A stretch of DNA of 64,000 bases, from the NCBI RefSeq assembly GCF_036507355.1, contig NZ_AP027877.1; one strand, written 5' to 3'. Below, piece after piece: positions 37,201 to 42,326 of the stretch. Within the stretch, counting starts at the first letter, position 1, and each line of letters opens with the position of its first letter. Made by a program: the position numbers. This stretch comes from Escherichia coli (lineage in GTDB: Bacteria; Pseudomonadota; Gammaproteobacteria; Enterobacterales; Enterobacteriaceae).

Positions 37201-40200
37201 TGCCGTAAAACTCCGGCGAGGTGTCGAGGTTGTGGTTGTAGTAATCCAGCCCGGCGTTCGCGAGGCGCTGCGCCTGAGATTCACTCAACGTGCCCAGCGT
37301 CATACACGCCTCCAGCCCCATCGCTTTTACCCCCTGCACCATCTGCTCCAGGTACGGCATATCGCGTTCGTGGGGATTCTTCCACGCCGCGCCCATGCAA
37401 AAACGCGTCGATCCCGCCGCTTTCGCTTTGCGCGCCGACTCCAGCACCTGTTCAACTTCCATCAACCGCTCGGCTTCCAGCCCGGTTTTATAGCGCGAGC
37501 TTTGCGGGCAATATTTGCAATCTTCCGGGCAAGCACCGGTTTTAATCGACAGTAACGTGCTGACCTGCACCTGACGAGGATCGAAATGCTGGCGATGCAC
37601 CTGCTGCGCTTCAAACAGCAGATCCAGCAACGGTTTTTCAAATAATTCTGTGACTTGCGACAATGTCCAGCGTGGGCGGTGAGCCATGGGGCTTCTCCAA
37701 AACGTGTTTTTTGTTGTTAATTCGGTGTAGACTTGTAAACCTAAATCTTTTCAATTTGGTTTACAAGTCGATTATGACAACGGACGATCTTGCCTTTGAC
37801 CAACGCCATATCTGGCACCCATACACATCCATGACCTCCCCGCTGCCGGTTTATCCGGTGGCGAGCGCCGAAGGTTGCGAGCTAATTTTGTCTGACGGCA
37901 GACGCCTGGTTGACGGTATGTCGTCCTGGTGGGCGGCGATCCACGGCTACAATCACCCGCAGCTTAATGCGGCGATGAAGACGCAAATTGATGCCATGTC
38001 GCATGTGATGTTTGGCGGTATCACTCATGCGCCAGCCATTGAGCTGTGCCGCAAACTGGTGGCGATGACGCCGCAACCGCTGGAGTGCGTTTTTCTCGCG
38101 GACTCCGGTTCTGTAGCGGTGGAAGTGGCGATGAAAATGGCGTTGCAGTACTGGCAAGCCAAAGGCGAAGCGCGCCAGCATTTTCTGACCTTCCGCAATG
38201 GTTATCATGGCGATACCTTTGGCGCGATGTCGGTGTGCGATCCGGACAACTCAATGCACAGCCTGTGGAAAGGCTATCTGCCAGAAAACTTGTTTGCTCC
38301 CGCCCCGCAAAGCCGCATGGATGGTGAATGGGATGAGCGCGATATGGTGGGCTTTGCCCGCCTGATGGCGGCGCATCGTCATGAAATCGCGGCGGTGATC
38401 ATTGAACCGATTGTCCAGGGCGCAGGCGGGATGCGCATGTACCATCCGGAATGGTTAAAACGAATCCGCAAAATGTGCGATCGCGAAGGTATCTTGCTGA
38501 TTGCCGACGAGATCGCCACCGGATTTGGTCGTACCGGCAAACTGTTTGCCTGTGAACATGCAGAAATCGCGCCGGACATTTTGTGCCTCGGTAAAGCCTT
38601 AACCGGCGGCACAATGACCCTTTCCGCCACACTCACCACGCGCGAGGTTGCGGAAACCATTAGTAACGGCGAAGCCGGTTGCTTTATGCATGGGCCAACT
38701 TTTATGGGTAATCCGCTGGCCTGCGCGGCAGCAAACGCCAGCCTCGCCATTATCGAAACTGGTGAATGGCAACAGCAGGTGGCGGCTATTGAAGCGCAGC
38801 TACGCGAGCAATTGGCCCCCGCCCGTGATGCCGAAATGGTTGCCGATGTGCGCGTGCTGGGAGCAATCGGCGTAGTCGAAACAACTCGTCCGGTGAATAT
38901 GGCGGCGCTGCAAAAATTCTTTGTCGAACAGGGTATCTGGATCCGGCCTTTTGGCAAACTGATTTACCTGATGCCGCCCTATATTATTCTCCCGCAACAG
39001 TTGCAGCGTCTGACCGCAGCGGTTAACCGCGCGGTACAGGATGAAACATTTTTTTGCCAATAACGGGAAGTCAGCGAGAGGGTTTCTGGCTACACTTTCT
39101 GCAAACTAGAAAGGAGGGTTCTTGACGGCTCCCCGCCCCGAATGACGGGGATTCCCACTTCAACGAGCCGAACCTAAGCCGCGTGCTGCGATTCAGGGTT
39201 TACAGGCTCTCCGTGGGCTAACACTGCCAACCCGGCAGCTTTAATATTACGTGCCGCGTTAATGTCGCGATCATAGTCTGCGCCGCATTCAGGGCAGTGC
39301 CATTTACGAACATTAAGAGGCATTTTTTGCATGGTGAAACCGCAGCAACTACAGCATTTTGAGGACGGTAAATACTGGTCAATGGCGACCACTGACCGCT
39401 CGGCCCATTTGCCTTTGTACTGGAGCTGGCGAACAAGTTCGCTCCAGCCTGCGTCAGCTATTGCTTTAGACAGCTTCGGGTTGCGGATCATGTTTTTCAC
39501 CTTGAGGGATTCGACGCAAACAACTTGGTTTTCGTTAATCAGTTTGCGGGACAACTTGTGCAGATTGTCCATCCGGCAATCGGCGATTTTCGCGTGGAGT
39601 CGGGCGACCTTTAAGCGGGCTTTAATACGGTTTCTTGAGCCTTTTTGCTTCCTGCTTAAACATCGCTGTAGCAGCGTTAATCGCTTCGCATATTTAGCGG
39701 TGTGGCGGGGATTGTCGGTTTTGAATCCGGTATCGGTAACGAATAAATCTTTTAAGCCCACATCAATGCCGACCGTTTTAGCGGTAACAGGCATTGATAC
39801 AGGTTCAAACTCACACAGGCAGGAAACAAAGTACCTGCCAGCGCTATCTCTGGAAATGGTAACGGTTGACGGCGCAGAGGGTAATTCTCGACTCCAGCGA
39901 ACATCCAGCGGCGACTTGCTTTTGCTATATACAACTCGCCGTCACGGTGTTTAAACGCGCTGGCAGTGAACTCAGCCACCTGTTTGTGCCGTTTGCTTTT
40001 GAAAGCCGGATATGCAGCTCGTCCGGCAAAGAAGTTAGCAAAGGCGGCTTGTTGGTGGCGCAACGACTGCTGGAGGGGACATTCAGCCATATGTATTCAG
40101 GCTCTTTTTTGAGCGCCGTAAGGCGAGCGTTGGCCTGTAGATAACCGATCTTTTCCTTTCGCTCGTAGTACGCATCGGTACGCCAACGAAGGATGGAATT

Positions 40201-42326
40201 GTAGACGAAGCGCACACAGCCGAACGTCTGAGCTAAAAGCTCAGCCTGCTCAGTTGTCGGGTAAAACCGGTATTTATATGCGCGTTTCATGTGTTCACAT
40301 ACTAAAGAGGAAAATGTGATTATGCAAAGTACAGTTAGTCGGAAAACCGCCTCCTTTCCTCCCCGGCCTGAAGGCCGAGGTTTCCCGGAGGCATTCTAAT
40401 GAAACTCATCAGTAACGATCTGCGCGATGGCGATAAGTTGCCGCATCGTCATGTCTTTAACGGCATGGGTTACGATGGCGATAATATTTCACCGCATCTG
40501 GCGTGGGATGATGTTCCTGCGGGAACGAAAAGTTTTGTTGTCACCTGCTACGACCCGGATGCGCCAACCGGCTCCGGCTGGTGGCACTGGGTAGTTGTTA
40601 ATTTACCCGCTGATACCCGCGTATTACCGCAAGGGTTTGGCTCTGGTCTGGTAGCAATGCCAGACGGCGTTTTGCAGACGCGTACCGATTTTGGTAAAAC
40701 CGGATACGATGGCGCAGCGCCGCCGAAAGGCGAAACCCATCGCTACATTTTTACCGTTCACGCGCTGGATGTAGAGCGTATTGATGTCGATGAAGGAGCC
40801 AGCGGCGCGATGGTCGGGTTTAACGTTCATTTCCACTCTCTGGCAAGCGCCTCGATTACGGCGATGTTTAGTTAATCACTCTGCCAGATGGCGCAATGCT
40901 ATCTGGTATCACTTAAAGGTATTAAAAACAACTTTTTGTCTTTTTACCTTCCCGTTTCGCTCAAGTTAGTATAAAAAAGCAGGCTTCAACGGATTCATTT
41001 TTCTATTTCATAGCCCGGAGCAACCTGTGAACACATTTTCAGTTTCCCGTCTGGCGCTGGCATTGGCTTTTGGCGTGACGCTGACCGCCTGTAGCTCAAC
41101 ACCACCCGATCAACGTCCTTCTGATCAAACTGCGCCTGGTACCTCTTCTCGCCCGATTCTGTCGGCAAAAGAAGCGCAGAATTTCGATGCTCAACACTAT
41201 TTTGCATCCCTGACACCAGGTGCTGCAGCGTGGAATCCTTCCCCGATTACCCTGCCTACACAACCTGACTTTGTTGTCGGCCCGGCGGGTACTCAAGGTG
41301 TAACGCATACCACGATTCAGGCGGCGGTAGATGCGGCAATTATCAAGCGTACCAACAAGCGCCAGTATATTGCCGTGATGCCTGGTGAGTATCAGGGAAC
41401 GGTGTATGTCCCTGCCGCTCCGGGTGGAATTACTCTGTACGGTACAGGTGAAAAACCGATTGATGTGAAGATTGGGCTTTCCCTTGATGGGGGTATGAGC
41501 CCTGCCGACTGGCGTCACGACGTCAACCCGCGCGGCAAATATATGCCAGGTAAACCAGCGTGGTATATGTACGATAGCTGCCAGAGCAAACGCAGCGACA
41601 GTATCGGTGTTCTCTGCTCTGCGGTCTTCTGGTCACAAAACAATGGCCTGCAACTGCAAAACCTGACCATCGAAAACACGCTGGGCGATAGCGTAGATGC
41701 GGGTAACCATCCGGCGGTGGCACTGCGTACTGATGGTGACCAGGTACAGATTAACAACGTTAACATTCTCGGTCGTCAGAACACCTTCTTTGTCACCAAC
41801 AGCGGTGTGCAGAACCGTCTGGAAACCAACCGTCAGCCGCGTACGCTGGTGACCAACAGCTATATTGAAGGGGATGTGGATATCGTTTCTGGTCGCGGTG
41901 CAGTGGTGTTCGATAACACCGAATTCCGCGTGGTGAACTCACGTACTCAGCAAGAAGCGTATGTGTTTGCACCGGCTACGCTGTCCAACATCTATTACGG
42001 TTTCCTCGCCGTAAACAGCCGTTTCAATGCTTCCGGTGATGGCGTGGCGCAACTGGGCCGCTCGCTGGATGTTGATGCCAATACCAACGGTCAGGTGGTG
42101 ATCCGTGATAGCGCCATCAACGAAGGTTTTAACACGGTTAAACCGTGGGGCGATGCGGTGATCTCTAATCGTCCGTTTGCGGGTAATACCGGCAGCGTTG
42201 ACGATAGCGACGAAATACAGCGCAATCTGAATGACACTAACTACAACCGCATGTGGGAATACAATAACCGCGGCGTGGGTAGCAAAGTGGTTGCAGAGGC
42301 GAAGAAGTAAGAGCTATTAACTATTT

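What the first reader, a model, noticed from the sequence alone, without database searches (positions are those of the whole stretch)
39064..40398. Degenerate tnpB-only IS200/IS605-type element between bioA and ybhB
Seen in sequence: ~1.2 kb absent from K-12 (from memory the bioA-ybhB spacer there is ~120 bp) encodes a TnpB-like protein split across three reading frames on the minus strand (N-terminal MKRAYKYRFYPTTEQ..., middle ...AFANFFAGRA..., C-terminal RuvC-like region with a CxxC-N-CxxC zinc finger), so two frameshifts. No tnpA is present. GC-rich hairpins lie beyond the 3' end (39090-39170) and upstream of the start (40330-40385). Established knowledge: TnpB is an RNA-guided nuclease whose guide RNA derives from the element right end. 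Inference: a decayed IS1341-type element; the RNA scaffold region may survive even though the nuclease is broken.
Basis: partly seen in the sequence, partly recalled or inferred. Interest (0 to 1): 0.45.

Follow-up and report, generated by a model that had tools for sequence, protein, structure and literature searches.

The report
Broken tnpB transposon at ybhB start
A 1.3-kb transposase-less IS200/IS605-type element, with its RNA-guided nuclease gene tnpB killed by two small deletions, sits exactly between the ribosome-binding site and the start codon of E. coli ybhB. It is an ordinary, already annotated pseudogene, but its guide-RNA scaffold and both transposon ends are still intact.

Summary
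Compared with K-12, whose bioA-ybhB spacer is 58 bp rather than about 120 bp, the window carries a 1277-bp insertion at 39122-40398 on the minus strand. It encodes a TnpB closely related to ISDra2 TnpB (PDB E=9e-75), split into three frames by a 13-bp and a 1-bp deletion. An intact 376-aa allele sits at the same site in 334 complete E. coli genomes, including CFT073 and 536. Seven genomes share the window's 13-bp deletion, and RefSeq marks the gene there as "frameshifted". So the frameshifts are real and already known.

There is no tnpA. The ends are typical of IS200/IS605: no inverted repeats, no target duplication, a TCAT flank at the left end, a TCAA terminus at the right end, and hairpins near both ends. 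A 118-nt omega-RNA scaffold (39239-39122) is supported by strong covariation across 26 relatives and is undamaged here.

One extra finding. The TCAT target is the reverse complement of the ybhB start codon (ATGA). The same holds for 22 of 28 related insertions, against about 20-25% expected. The left end also puts a GGAGG 7 nt upstream of the ybhB ATG.

The element itself is of low interest. The start-codon pattern is worth a follow-up.

The parts
39122..40398 (-). The whole non-autonomous IS200/IS605 (IS1341-type) element. It is 1277 bp here and 1291 bp in the intact allele.
   Evidence: The boundaries come from comparing the window with the K-12 empty site...ggagggttc|atgaaa in K-12 against ...ggagggttc|[element]|atgaaa in the window. 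There is no duplication and no inverted repeats. The same ends recur in relatives.
39174..40290 (-). The tnpB pseudogene, with ATG at 40290 and TAG at 39176-39174. It is broken into three frames.
   Evidence: RefSeq annotates the same allele as 'RNA-guided endonuclease InsQ/TnpB family protein, frameshifted'.
40079..40080 (-). Site of the 13-bp deletion (ATGTTTCCTGCGT in the intact allele). This is the first frameshift.
   Evidence: Alignment A1. The deletion is present in 7 of the 341 E. coli genomes that carry this stretch.
39920..39921 (-). Site of the 1-bp deletion (G). This is the second frameshift.
   Evidence: Alignment A1. Strain 33F4 shares it.
39275..39275 (-). A window-specific C>T change giving H344Y, three residues before the catalytic D347 (HDRD motif).
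   Evidence: In alignment A2 the other 25 sequences all have CAT or CAC (His) here.
39122..39239 (-). The omega-RNA scaffold, 118 nt with six helices. It overlaps the last 66 nt of tnpB (63 coding bases plus the stop codon) and ends at the right-end boundary.
   Evidence: RNAalifold and pair counts on 26 relatives. 95.1% of cells are paired, against 38-52% when the partners are slid. 20 of 29 pairs show changes on both sides, and 0 of 500 shuffles reach the observed covariation score. The window copy's own minimum-energy fold contains all six helices.
39130..39151 (-). The subterminal right-end hairpin (helix P6: TCCCCGTCA / GGGCGGGGA), followed by the conserved terminus ...GTCAA, which ends at 39122.
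   Evidence: Compensatory variants include GTTTGCC/GGCGGAC in L007.
39102..39121 (-). The predicted omega-RNA guide, which is the flanking DNA just 3' of the right end (GAACCCTCCTTTCTAGTTTG). On the plus strand this same stretch holds the original ybhB Shine-Dalgarno (GGAGG, 39113-39117).
   Evidence: The position follows from the TnpB model and is an inference. This flank differs in every related locus. K-12 has the same sequence directly in front of the ybhB ATG.
40291..40398 (-). The left end, 108 nt. It has an inner hairpin (40361-40380) and an outer stem pairing GCCTCC with GGAGGC (40349-40354 with 40387-40392).
   Evidence: The outer stem covaries among relatives (CCTCC:GGAGG, GCGCG:CGCGC, CCCC:GGGG).
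40399..40402 (-). The target or TAM tetranucleotide TCAT that abuts the left end. On the plus strand it reads ATGA, the ybhB start codon plus one base.
   Evidence: NTCAT flanks 27 of the 28 related insertions examined; L083 has ACAT.
40387..40391 (+). A GGAGG supplied by the element, 7 nt upstream of the ybhB ATG. It is a candidate replacement Shine-Dalgarno.
   Evidence: Read directly from the sequence. Its use is untested, and the predicted RNA fold pairs it with 40349-40354.
40294..40323 (+). A sigma-70-like site facing out of the left end towards ybhB (TTCACA, 18-nt spacer, TG-GATTAT).
   Evidence: Consensus scan only: 9 of 12 matches plus TG. This is not evidence of function.
40399..40875 (+). 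ybhB (158 aa), intact. Its 5' untranslated region is now element DNA.
37774..39063 (+). bioA, convergent with tnpB. Its stop codon lies 58 bp from the right end.

Best explanation
This is a non-autonomous IS200/IS605-family element of the tnpB-only, IS1341 type.

How it arrived (inferred). It entered as single-stranded DNA, moved by a Y1 TnpA supplied in trans. It inserted 3' of the tetranucleotide TCAT, which here is the reverse complement of the ybhB start codon (ATGA).

What the intact allele does (inferred from the family). The intact allele is carried by 334 E. coli genomes, including CFT073 and 536. In that form the element encodes a TnpB with a complete RuvC triad. It also encodes a 118-nt omega-RNA scaffold whose guide is the 16-20 nt next to the right end. 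Together they would cut TCAT-plus-guide, which is the empty K-12-type site. That would keep or restore the element by homologous repair.

What is shown for the window. In this lineage two deletions, of 13 bp and 1 bp, destroy the reading frame, so there is no nuclease. Both ends, the TCAT flank and the omega-RNA scaffold are intact. The copy therefore remains a substrate for a TnpA acting in trans, and its RNA could serve a TnpB supplied in trans.

Its lasting effect on the host (inferred). ybhB has been cut off from its own ribosome-binding site. It must now be translated from element DNA, using the GGAGG 7 nt upstream of its ATG. Transcription would come either from read-through across the element or from an outward promoter-like site in the left end.
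For: - Insertion and boundaries.
- Identity as TnpB.
- Catalytic residues D181/E265/D347 align with ISDra2 D191/E278/D361.
- An intact allele sits at the same site.
- The two deletions. The 13-bp deletion is shared by 7 genomes, and 334 genomes lack it.
- RefSeq annotates the gene as frameshifted.
- No tnpA in the window or beside about 90 related loci.
- Relatives are all 1.28-1.35 kb and carry tnpB alone, at many different sites.
- The left flank is TCAT and the right terminus is GTCAA throughout.
- Omega-RNA covariation. The window copy is intact.
- The homing model and trans-mobilisation of tnpA-less elements are established knowledge (Meers et al., 10.1101/2023.03.14.532601; Karvelis et al. 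2021, PMC8612924).
Against: - No expression data exist for tnpB, the omega-RNA or ybhB.
- The cognate TnpA was not identified.
- The narrower NCBIfam model IS200_TnpB scores 400 bits, below its cut-off of 425.
- Rfam has no family that matches the scaffold.
- The element's GGAGG is predicted to be paired within the left-end outer stem, so it may work poorly as a Shine-Dalgarno.
- The outward promoter is only a consensus match, and the number of such matches is no higher than in shuffled sequence.
Confidence: 0.88

Rival explanations
1. The frameshifts are sequencing or assembly errors, and the gene is really intact in this strain.
For: The 1-bp lesion lies in an A-rich run (AAAGAG becomes AAAAG), the kind of place where errors occur.
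Against: The larger lesion is a 13-bp deletion of complex sequence. It recurs in seven complete genomes from different sources and countries, whereas 334 genomes lack it. Alignment of one of the seven, strain 33F4, shows the 1-bp deletion too. The window also carries H344Y at a position that does not vary in the other 25 sequences of alignment A2, which fits relaxed constraint.
Confidence: 0.02
2. The locus is a domesticated TnpB/omega-RNA, either a TldR-like RNA-guided regulator or a dedicated controller of ybhB, and not a selfish transposon remnant.
For: The element is fixed at one chromosomal site, with an intact reading frame, in about 6% of complete E. coli genomes. It provides the translation-initiation region of ybhB.
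Against: The RuvC triad is intact in the full-length allele, unlike TldR. The guide is simply the flank, as in mobile copies. Close relatives sit at more than 25 different sites with complete ends. The gene was lost by frameshift in the window lineage while ybhB stayed intact.
Confidence: 0.04
3. The element was present in the ancestor of E. coli, and the K-12-type 58-bp spacer is the product of precise TnpA-mediated excision. On this view the window copy is not a later gain.
For: IS200/IS605 excision leaves no scar, so an empty site cannot be told from a site that was never occupied (established knowledge). The window and B2-type copies differ by about 1%, similar to their flanks. That fits long residence at the site.
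Against: Only 341-381 of 5426 genomes carry the element. No other Escherichia species in the one-genome-per-species collection has it at this site. Spread between lineages by homologous recombination of the bio region would explain the pattern equally well.
Confidence: 0.25
4. The match between the insertion point and the ybhB start codon is only survivorship. CAT-containing targets in tolerated (intergenic) positions are often start codons, so the element has no special adaptation.
For: In the subset found by an unbiased metagenome scan, only 1 of 5 junctions is at a start codon. The GGAGG is the complement of a structural arm of the left end that covaries with its partner. Pseudomonas and Zobellella copies have GCGCG there, with no Shine-Dalgarno. 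Relatives with TTAT or TTAC targets sometimes land on TAA stop codons, 3 of 12. That would be expected if codon-like targets simply survive where they do no harm.
Against: 22 of 28 junctions are at start-like ATGs, against 20-24% of all ATGA sites in the window by the same criterion (p about 1e-9). My own estimate for intergenic-only survivors is about 22-25%. Intergenic TCAT sites that are not at start codons should outnumber start-codon sites.
Confidence: 0.45

Closest known systems
ISDra2 TnpB and its omega/reRNA (Deinococcus radiodurans; PDB 8bf8, 8ex9, 8h1j)
   Same: The protein aligns end to end at E=9e-75, and the D-E-D RuvC triad and zinc ribbon are conserved. The RNA scaffold overlaps the 3' end of tnpB and ends at the right-end boundary, with the guide taken from the flank.
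   Different: ISDra2 carries its own tnpA and uses the TAM TTGAT. This element has no tnpA, and its flank is TCAT. Activity of this protein was not tested.
Non-autonomous tnpB-only IS200/IS605 elements (IS1341 group; for example the ISGst elements of Geobacillus stearothermophilus in Meers et al.)
   Same: It has tnpB plus an omega-RNA between left and right ends with subterminal hairpins, and no transposase. It has a specific 4-5-nt flank at the left end. Related copies sit at many sites, which implies mobilisation in trans (paper read).
   Different: It belongs to a different lineage (Enterobacterales and other Gammaproteobacteria), has a TCAT target, and in the relatives sampled here shows a marked excess of insertions exactly at host start codons.
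IS608 (Helicobacter pylori), the mechanistic model for the family
   Same: There are no inverted repeats and no target duplication, insertion is 3' of a tetranucleotide, the right end terminates in TCAA, and both ends have hairpins.
   Different: IS608 targets TTAC and is autonomous. Here the target is TCAT. Sister relatives with TTAC or TTAT flanks have different bases 5' of the left-end hairpin.
TldR (nuclease-dead TnpB-like repressors of Enterobacteriaceae; PMC10705468)
   Same: It is a TnpB-family protein with an adjacent guide RNA at a fixed chromosomal position in enterobacteria.
   Different: TldR proteins have lost RuvC activity and have guides that match host promoters. The intact allele here keeps the triad, and its guide is the insertion flank.

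Membership tests
TnpB (RNA-guided endonuclease of IS200/IS605/IS607 elements) | Domain architecture: N-terminal HTH/WED-REC, RuvC (OrfB_IS605) and a zinc-ribbon TNB domain | tested here: met
   Pfam finds PF12323, PF01385 and PF07282 on the intact allele. NCBIfam guided_TnpB scores 369.5 bits against a cut-off of 100. The window copy covers residues 1-70, 76-129 and 127-376 at 98-100% identity.
TnpB (RNA-guided endonuclease of IS200/IS605/IS607 elements) | RuvC catalytic triad D-E-D | tested here: met
   D181/E265/D347 align with ISDra2 D191/E278/D361. The codons are still present in the window, but in a frame cut off from the N-terminus.
TnpB (RNA-guided endonuclease of IS200/IS605/IS607 elements) | One uninterrupted reading frame, that is, a functional gene | tested here: not met
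   Two frameshifting deletions. The window copy is a pseudogene, and the intact allele exists in other strains.
TnpB (RNA-guided endonuclease of IS200/IS605/IS607 elements) | Curated equivalog-level model IS200_TnpB (NF038281) | tested here: not met
   400 bits against a cut-off of 425. This explains the generic RefSeq name 'InsQ/TnpB family protein'.
TnpB (RNA-guided endonuclease of IS200/IS605/IS607 elements) | RNA-guided, TAM-dependent cleavage of double-stranded DNA | not testable with these tools
   This needs a plasmid-interference or in vitro cleavage assay with the intact allele.
IS200/IS605 family, tnpB-only (IS1341-type) element | No terminal inverted repeats and no target-site duplication | tested here: met
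   The K-12 empty site equals the left flank plus the right flank, with nothing duplicated.
IS200/IS605 family, tnpB-only (IS1341-type) element | Subterminal hairpins at both ends | tested here: met
   The right-end hairpin P6 has compensatory changes. The left-end inner hairpin and outer stem both covary.
IS200/IS605 family, tnpB-only (IS1341-type) element | Insertion 3' of a fixed 4-5-nt motif abutting the left end, and a conserved cleavage motif at the right-end tip | tested here: met
   TCAT flanks 27 of the 28 related junctions; L083 has ACAT. GTCAA is at the right-end tip in 33 copies.
IS200/IS605 family, tnpB-only (IS1341-type) element | A Y1 (HUH) TnpA transposase inside the element | tested here: not met
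   It is absent from the element and from the window. It is also absent next to all related loci except for an unrelated IS200C copy 1.2 kb from L007. The element is therefore non-autonomous, which defines the IS1341 subgroup.
omega-RNA (TnpB guide RNA) | A conserved structured scaffold that overlaps the 3' end of tnpB and ends at the right-end boundary | tested here: met
   Six helices and 29 pairs. 95.1% of cells are paired, against 38-52% in slid controls. 20 pairs have changes on both sides, and 0 of 500 shuffles reach the observed score. Several helices lie inside coding sequence.
omega-RNA (TnpB guide RNA) | A guide segment made of the variable flank 3' of the right end | tested here: met
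   The 22 nt after GTCAA are unrelated among the 32 loci.
omega-RNA (TnpB guide RNA) | Transcription and processing to a stable RNA bound by TnpB | not testable with these tools
   No transcriptome data are available. Rfam has no matching family. The only hits are sub-threshold matches of the archaeal IS1341 RNAs sot0042 and HgcC to the left-end hairpin.
TldR (nuclease-dead TnpB-derived repressor) | Loss of RuvC catalytic residues, and a guide complementary to a host promoter | tested here: not met
   The triad is intact in the full-length allele, and the guide is the insertion flank.

The most novel reading that the evidence does not exclude
This gammaproteobacterial TnpB clade with a TCAT target may specialise in docking exactly on host start codons. 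It would insert between the ribosome-binding site and ATGA and replace the gene's 5' untranslated region with its own left end. In enterobacterial copies the left end carries a GGAGG at Shine-Dalgarno distance and an outward promoter-like site.

This could come about in two ways. The transposase may prefer single-stranded translation-initiation regions as targets. Alternatively, the element may have adapted so that such insertions keep the host gene expressed. I found no description of this insertion niche for IS200/IS605 elements in the searchable literature.
Probability: 0.3. Interest if true: 0.55.

Novelty: already known. Interest (0 to 1): 0.22.

Why it matters
The element itself matters little. 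It is one more decayed tnpB copy, and RefSeq already annotates the identical allele as a frameshifted pseudogene.

Three points are of some use:
- It gives a clean natural pair, an intact and a broken allele at the same site. That allows a test of whether an omega-RNA persists without its nuclease.
- ybhB in these strains is expressed from transposon-derived signals. Anyone comparing ybhB or bio-locus expression between K-12 and B2-type strains should know this.
- The excess of related insertions placed exactly at start codons is unexplained. If it reflects target choice, it would say something new about how single-strand transposons choose or survive at sites.

Tried and rejected
- Rfam search of 38500-41000 at a permissive threshold. 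Nothing came near a gathering score. The weak sot0042 and HgcC hits fall on the left-end hairpin, not on the omega-RNA region.
- A second copy, a tnpA, or isolated element ends elsewhere in the window. None was found.
- A cognate autonomous element. No Y1 tnpA lies beside any of about 90 related loci, so the mobilising transposase remains unknown.
- The idea that the left-end GGAGG pairs with the CCTCC (the complement of the host Shine-Dalgarno) in the target flank, and so directs insertion to start codons. I rejected this. Pseudomonas, Zobellella and Ferrimonas copies have GCGCG instead and lack such flanks, yet four of the five sit at start codons.
- An extended target motif beyond TCAT. No conservation is visible in the 10 nt before it.
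- A metagenome scan for more junctions. It gave only five usable sites, and four of them were not at start codons. This weakened the pattern from 21/23 to 22/28.
- Literature searches for start-codon docking, a TCAT TAM, or this E. coli element. No description was found. Absence from the searchable library is not proof of novelty.
- The simple promoter scan did not report the tnpB promoter I read by eye (TTGCAT, 17-nt spacer, TAGTAT, at 40327-40299). I mention it only as something noticed in passing.

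
Full report
**Observation**

The window is E. coli DNA carrying bioB, bioA, ybhB and ybhC. In K-12 the bioA stop and the ybhB ATG are 58 bp apart. In the window they are 1335 bp apart.

Base-by-base comparison places the extra DNA at 39122-40398, which is 1277 bp. K-12 reads ...aaaggagggttc|atgaaactc. The window reads ...aaaggagggttc|ttgacggctcc...ggaggcattcta|atgaaactc. 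Nothing is duplicated, and the two ends are not inverted repeats.

**The gene**

On the minus strand, three ORFs in three frames together match a 376-aa protein that is intact at the same site in other E. coli strains. One example is strain D8, protein WP_000817269.1.
- tblastn places residues 1-70 at 40290-40081, residues 76-129 at 40078-39917 and residues 127-376 at 39926-39177.
- The nucleotide alignment shows exactly two lesions. One is a 13-bp deletion (ATGTTTCCTGCGT) between 40080 and 40079. The other is a 1-bp deletion between 39921 and 39920.

A probe across the 13-bp site finds 341 complete genomes that carry this stretch. Seven have the deletion. They come from Swiss cattle and a farm, Chinese meat and chicken, and Japanese patients. 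The other 334 do not have it and include CFT073, 536, ABU 83972 and NU14. RefSeq marks the gene as "frameshifted" in two of the seven that I checked, and strain 33F4 shows both deletions in the alignment. The frameshifts are therefore real, lineage-specific and already annotated. They are not homopolymer artefacts.

The intact protein is a typical TnpB.
- Pfam finds HTH_OrfB_IS605, OrfB_IS605 and Cas12f1-like_TNB.
- NCBIfam guided_TnpB scores 369.5 bits against a cut-off of 100. The narrower IS200_TnpB model falls just short, at 400 against 425.
- The ISDra2 TnpB structures match over the whole length at E=9e-75.
- In that alignment D181, E265 and D347 correspond to the ISDra2 catalytic residues D191, E278 and D361.

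The window copy also has H344Y (39275), at a histidine that does not vary in the other 25 aligned sequences. It carries two further non-synonymous and five synonymous differences from D8 (read). This is what one expects shortly after a gene is inactivated.

**The ends and the family**

Relatives with 63-91% protein identity are common on enterobacterial plasmids and phage-plasmids, and in chromosomes of Enterobacterales, Zobellella, Pseudomonas, Ferrimonas and Endozoicomonas.
- Wherever both ends could be located, the element is 1.28-1.35 kb and carries tnpB alone.
- No Y1 transposase lies beside any of about 90 loci. The one exception is an unrelated IS200C copy near L007.
- The right end always stops at ...GTCAA, after which the sequences become unrelated.
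- The left end is preceded by TCAT in the window's subgroup.
- Sister subgroups with a different left end are preceded by TTAT or TTAC. They also differ in the bases just 5' of the left-end hairpin. This is the position where IS608 reads its target.

These are the defining traits of the IS200/IS605 family in its tnpB-only (IS1341-type) form. Such elements are thought to be mobilised in trans (Meers et al., read).

**The guide RNA**

I aligned the last 220 nt of 26 copies. RNAalifold predicts six helices in the final 118 nt or so, running up to the right-end boundary.

Counted against controls, 95.1% of cells form standard pairs, compared with 38-52% when the partners are slid by one to three columns. 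Twenty of the 29 pairs show changes on both sides, and no shuffle out of 500 reaches the observed covariation score. Several helices lie inside coding sequence, where paired third-position changes are hard to explain in any other way.

In window coordinates the scaffold is 39239-39122 on the minus strand. The window copy keeps every pair. It differs from the intact D8 allele at only two scaffold positions, both in loops (39230 and 39139). Its own minimum-energy fold contains all six helices.

The guide would be the next 16-20 nt (39121-39102, GAACCCTCCTTTCTAGTTTG). Together with TCAT this recreates the K-12-type empty site, with one mismatch at guide position 15. Rfam has no model for this RNA.

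Whether the RNA accumulates without TnpB is unknown.

**What the element does now**

The nuclease is dead. What remains is a complete pair of ends, and hence a possible substrate for a TnpA acting in trans. There is also an intact scaffold that could serve a TnpB acting in trans.

There is also a permanent change to ybhB. The insertion lies between the former ybhB Shine-Dalgarno (GGAGG, 39113-39117) and the ybhB ATG (40399). The gene is intact and is now preceded by element DNA that offers a GGAGG at 40387-40391, 7 nt from the ATG. A sigma-70-like site at 40294-40323 points towards ybhB.

Both are inferences from sequence alone. The GGAGG is predicted to pair with 40349-40354. The promoter match is no better than shuffled sequence yields.

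**An unexpected regularity**

The TCAT next to the left end is the reverse complement of ATGA, the ybhB start codon plus one base.
- The same is true for 16 of 17 relatives from genomes and plasmids. In those, the ATG opens an ORF of 116 to more than 779 aa that reads away from the element.
- In the annotated records it is the annotated start of traX, trbC, a hypothetical gene and a phage head-processing gene.
- Reconstructed empty sites mostly show an upstream in-frame stop with no alternative start, and about half have a Shine-Dalgarno-like motif.
- Viral contigs add five of six junctions. A metagenome scan adds only one of five.

Overall this is 22 of 28. By the same criterion, 20-24% of all ATGA sites in the window qualify, giving p of about 1e-9.

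Caveats:
- L005 and L006 share a host gene.
- L083 has ACAT.
- The L088 boundary is ambiguous.
- The ORF thresholds are arbitrary.
- The metagenome subset fits the null.

The left-end GGAGG is the complement of one arm of an outer stem that covaries with its partner (CCTCC:GGAGG, GCGCG:CGCGC, CCCC:GGGG). The "replacement Shine-Dalgarno" is therefore at least partly a by-product of left-end structure, and it is absent from the Pseudomonas and Zobellella copies.

I cannot tell target preference from survivorship with these data. I found no paper that describes the pattern.

**Verdict**

The finding is correct and its interpretation is supported. The object is a known kind of thing that public annotation already labels. 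Interest in the element itself is low. The start-codon docking of its clade is the only part that might be new, and it needs an insertion assay to interpret.

Noticed in passing
window 40399-40402; loci L004-L007, L010, L013-L047, L068-L103: In 22 of 28 related insertions with a TCAT flank, the TCAT is the reverse complement of the ATGA start of a host gene that reads away from the element. The element therefore sits between that gene's ribosome-binding site and its ATG. About 20-25% would be expected (p about 1e-9), but only 1 of the 5 metagenome junctions fits.
   Followed up: partly
L019, L028, L045 (junctions reported): Sister elements with TTAT or TTAC flanks land on the TAA stop codon of a converging gene in 3 of 12 cases. 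The right-end tip (TCAA, which reads TTGA on the other strand) would then supply a new in-frame TGA stop straight after the junction.
   Followed up: partly
window 40349-40354 with 40387-40392, and the same positions in 20 relatives: The left end has an outer stem around the usual hairpin, and it covaries among relatives (CCTCC:GGAGG, GCGCG:CGCGC, CCCC:GGGG, CCCT:AGGG). IS608-type left ends are usually drawn with a single hairpin.
   Followed up: partly
window 40327-40288, minus strand: A promoter-like pair (TTGCAT, 17-nt spacer, TAGTAT) ends 8 nt before the tnpB ATG, and there is no Shine-Dalgarno. tnpB may therefore be translated from a leaderless mRNA. The motif is conserved in enterobacterial relatives but fell below the scan's threshold.
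   Followed up: no
window 40341-40504, minus strand: Sub-threshold Rfam matches to sot0042 and HgcC fall on the left-end hairpin. sot0042 is one of the 'sense overlapping transcripts' of Halobacterium IS1341-type tnpB genes (PMC4615843); HgcC is, to my knowledge, an archaeal RNA. The hairpin and its GGAGG tail resemble the 3' hairpin of those RNAs.
   Followed up: no
window 39174-39794, minus strand: The third frame forms a 206-aa ORF with its own ATG. It contains the whole RuvC and zinc-ribbon part (the D, E and D residues are all present) but lacks the N-terminal RNA- and DNA-recognition domains. Whether it is made is unknown.
   Followed up: no
L051-L067 (IMG/VR contigs): Seventeen 'viral' contigs end exactly in the 100%-identical intact tnpB. 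They are probably prophage predictions in E. coli genomes that run on into the bio region. They should not be read as phage carriage of this element.
   Followed up: no
window 40876-41026, compared with L002 and L089: The two genomes I examined of the seven that share the window's broken tnpB allele (33F4 and ECNB21-M121) carry an O-antigen glucosylation (gtr-like) island between ybhB and ybhC. In ECNB21-M121 it includes an IS481 transposase and an integrase fragment. The window has the short K-12-like ybhB-ybhC spacer instead, so it comes from a distinct strain.
   Followed up: no
L011: A 1.5-kb contig binned as 'uncultured Sutterella sp.' is this E. coli bioA-ybhB element at 99% identity, with the E. 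coli flanks. It is almost certainly a binning contaminant.
   Followed up: no
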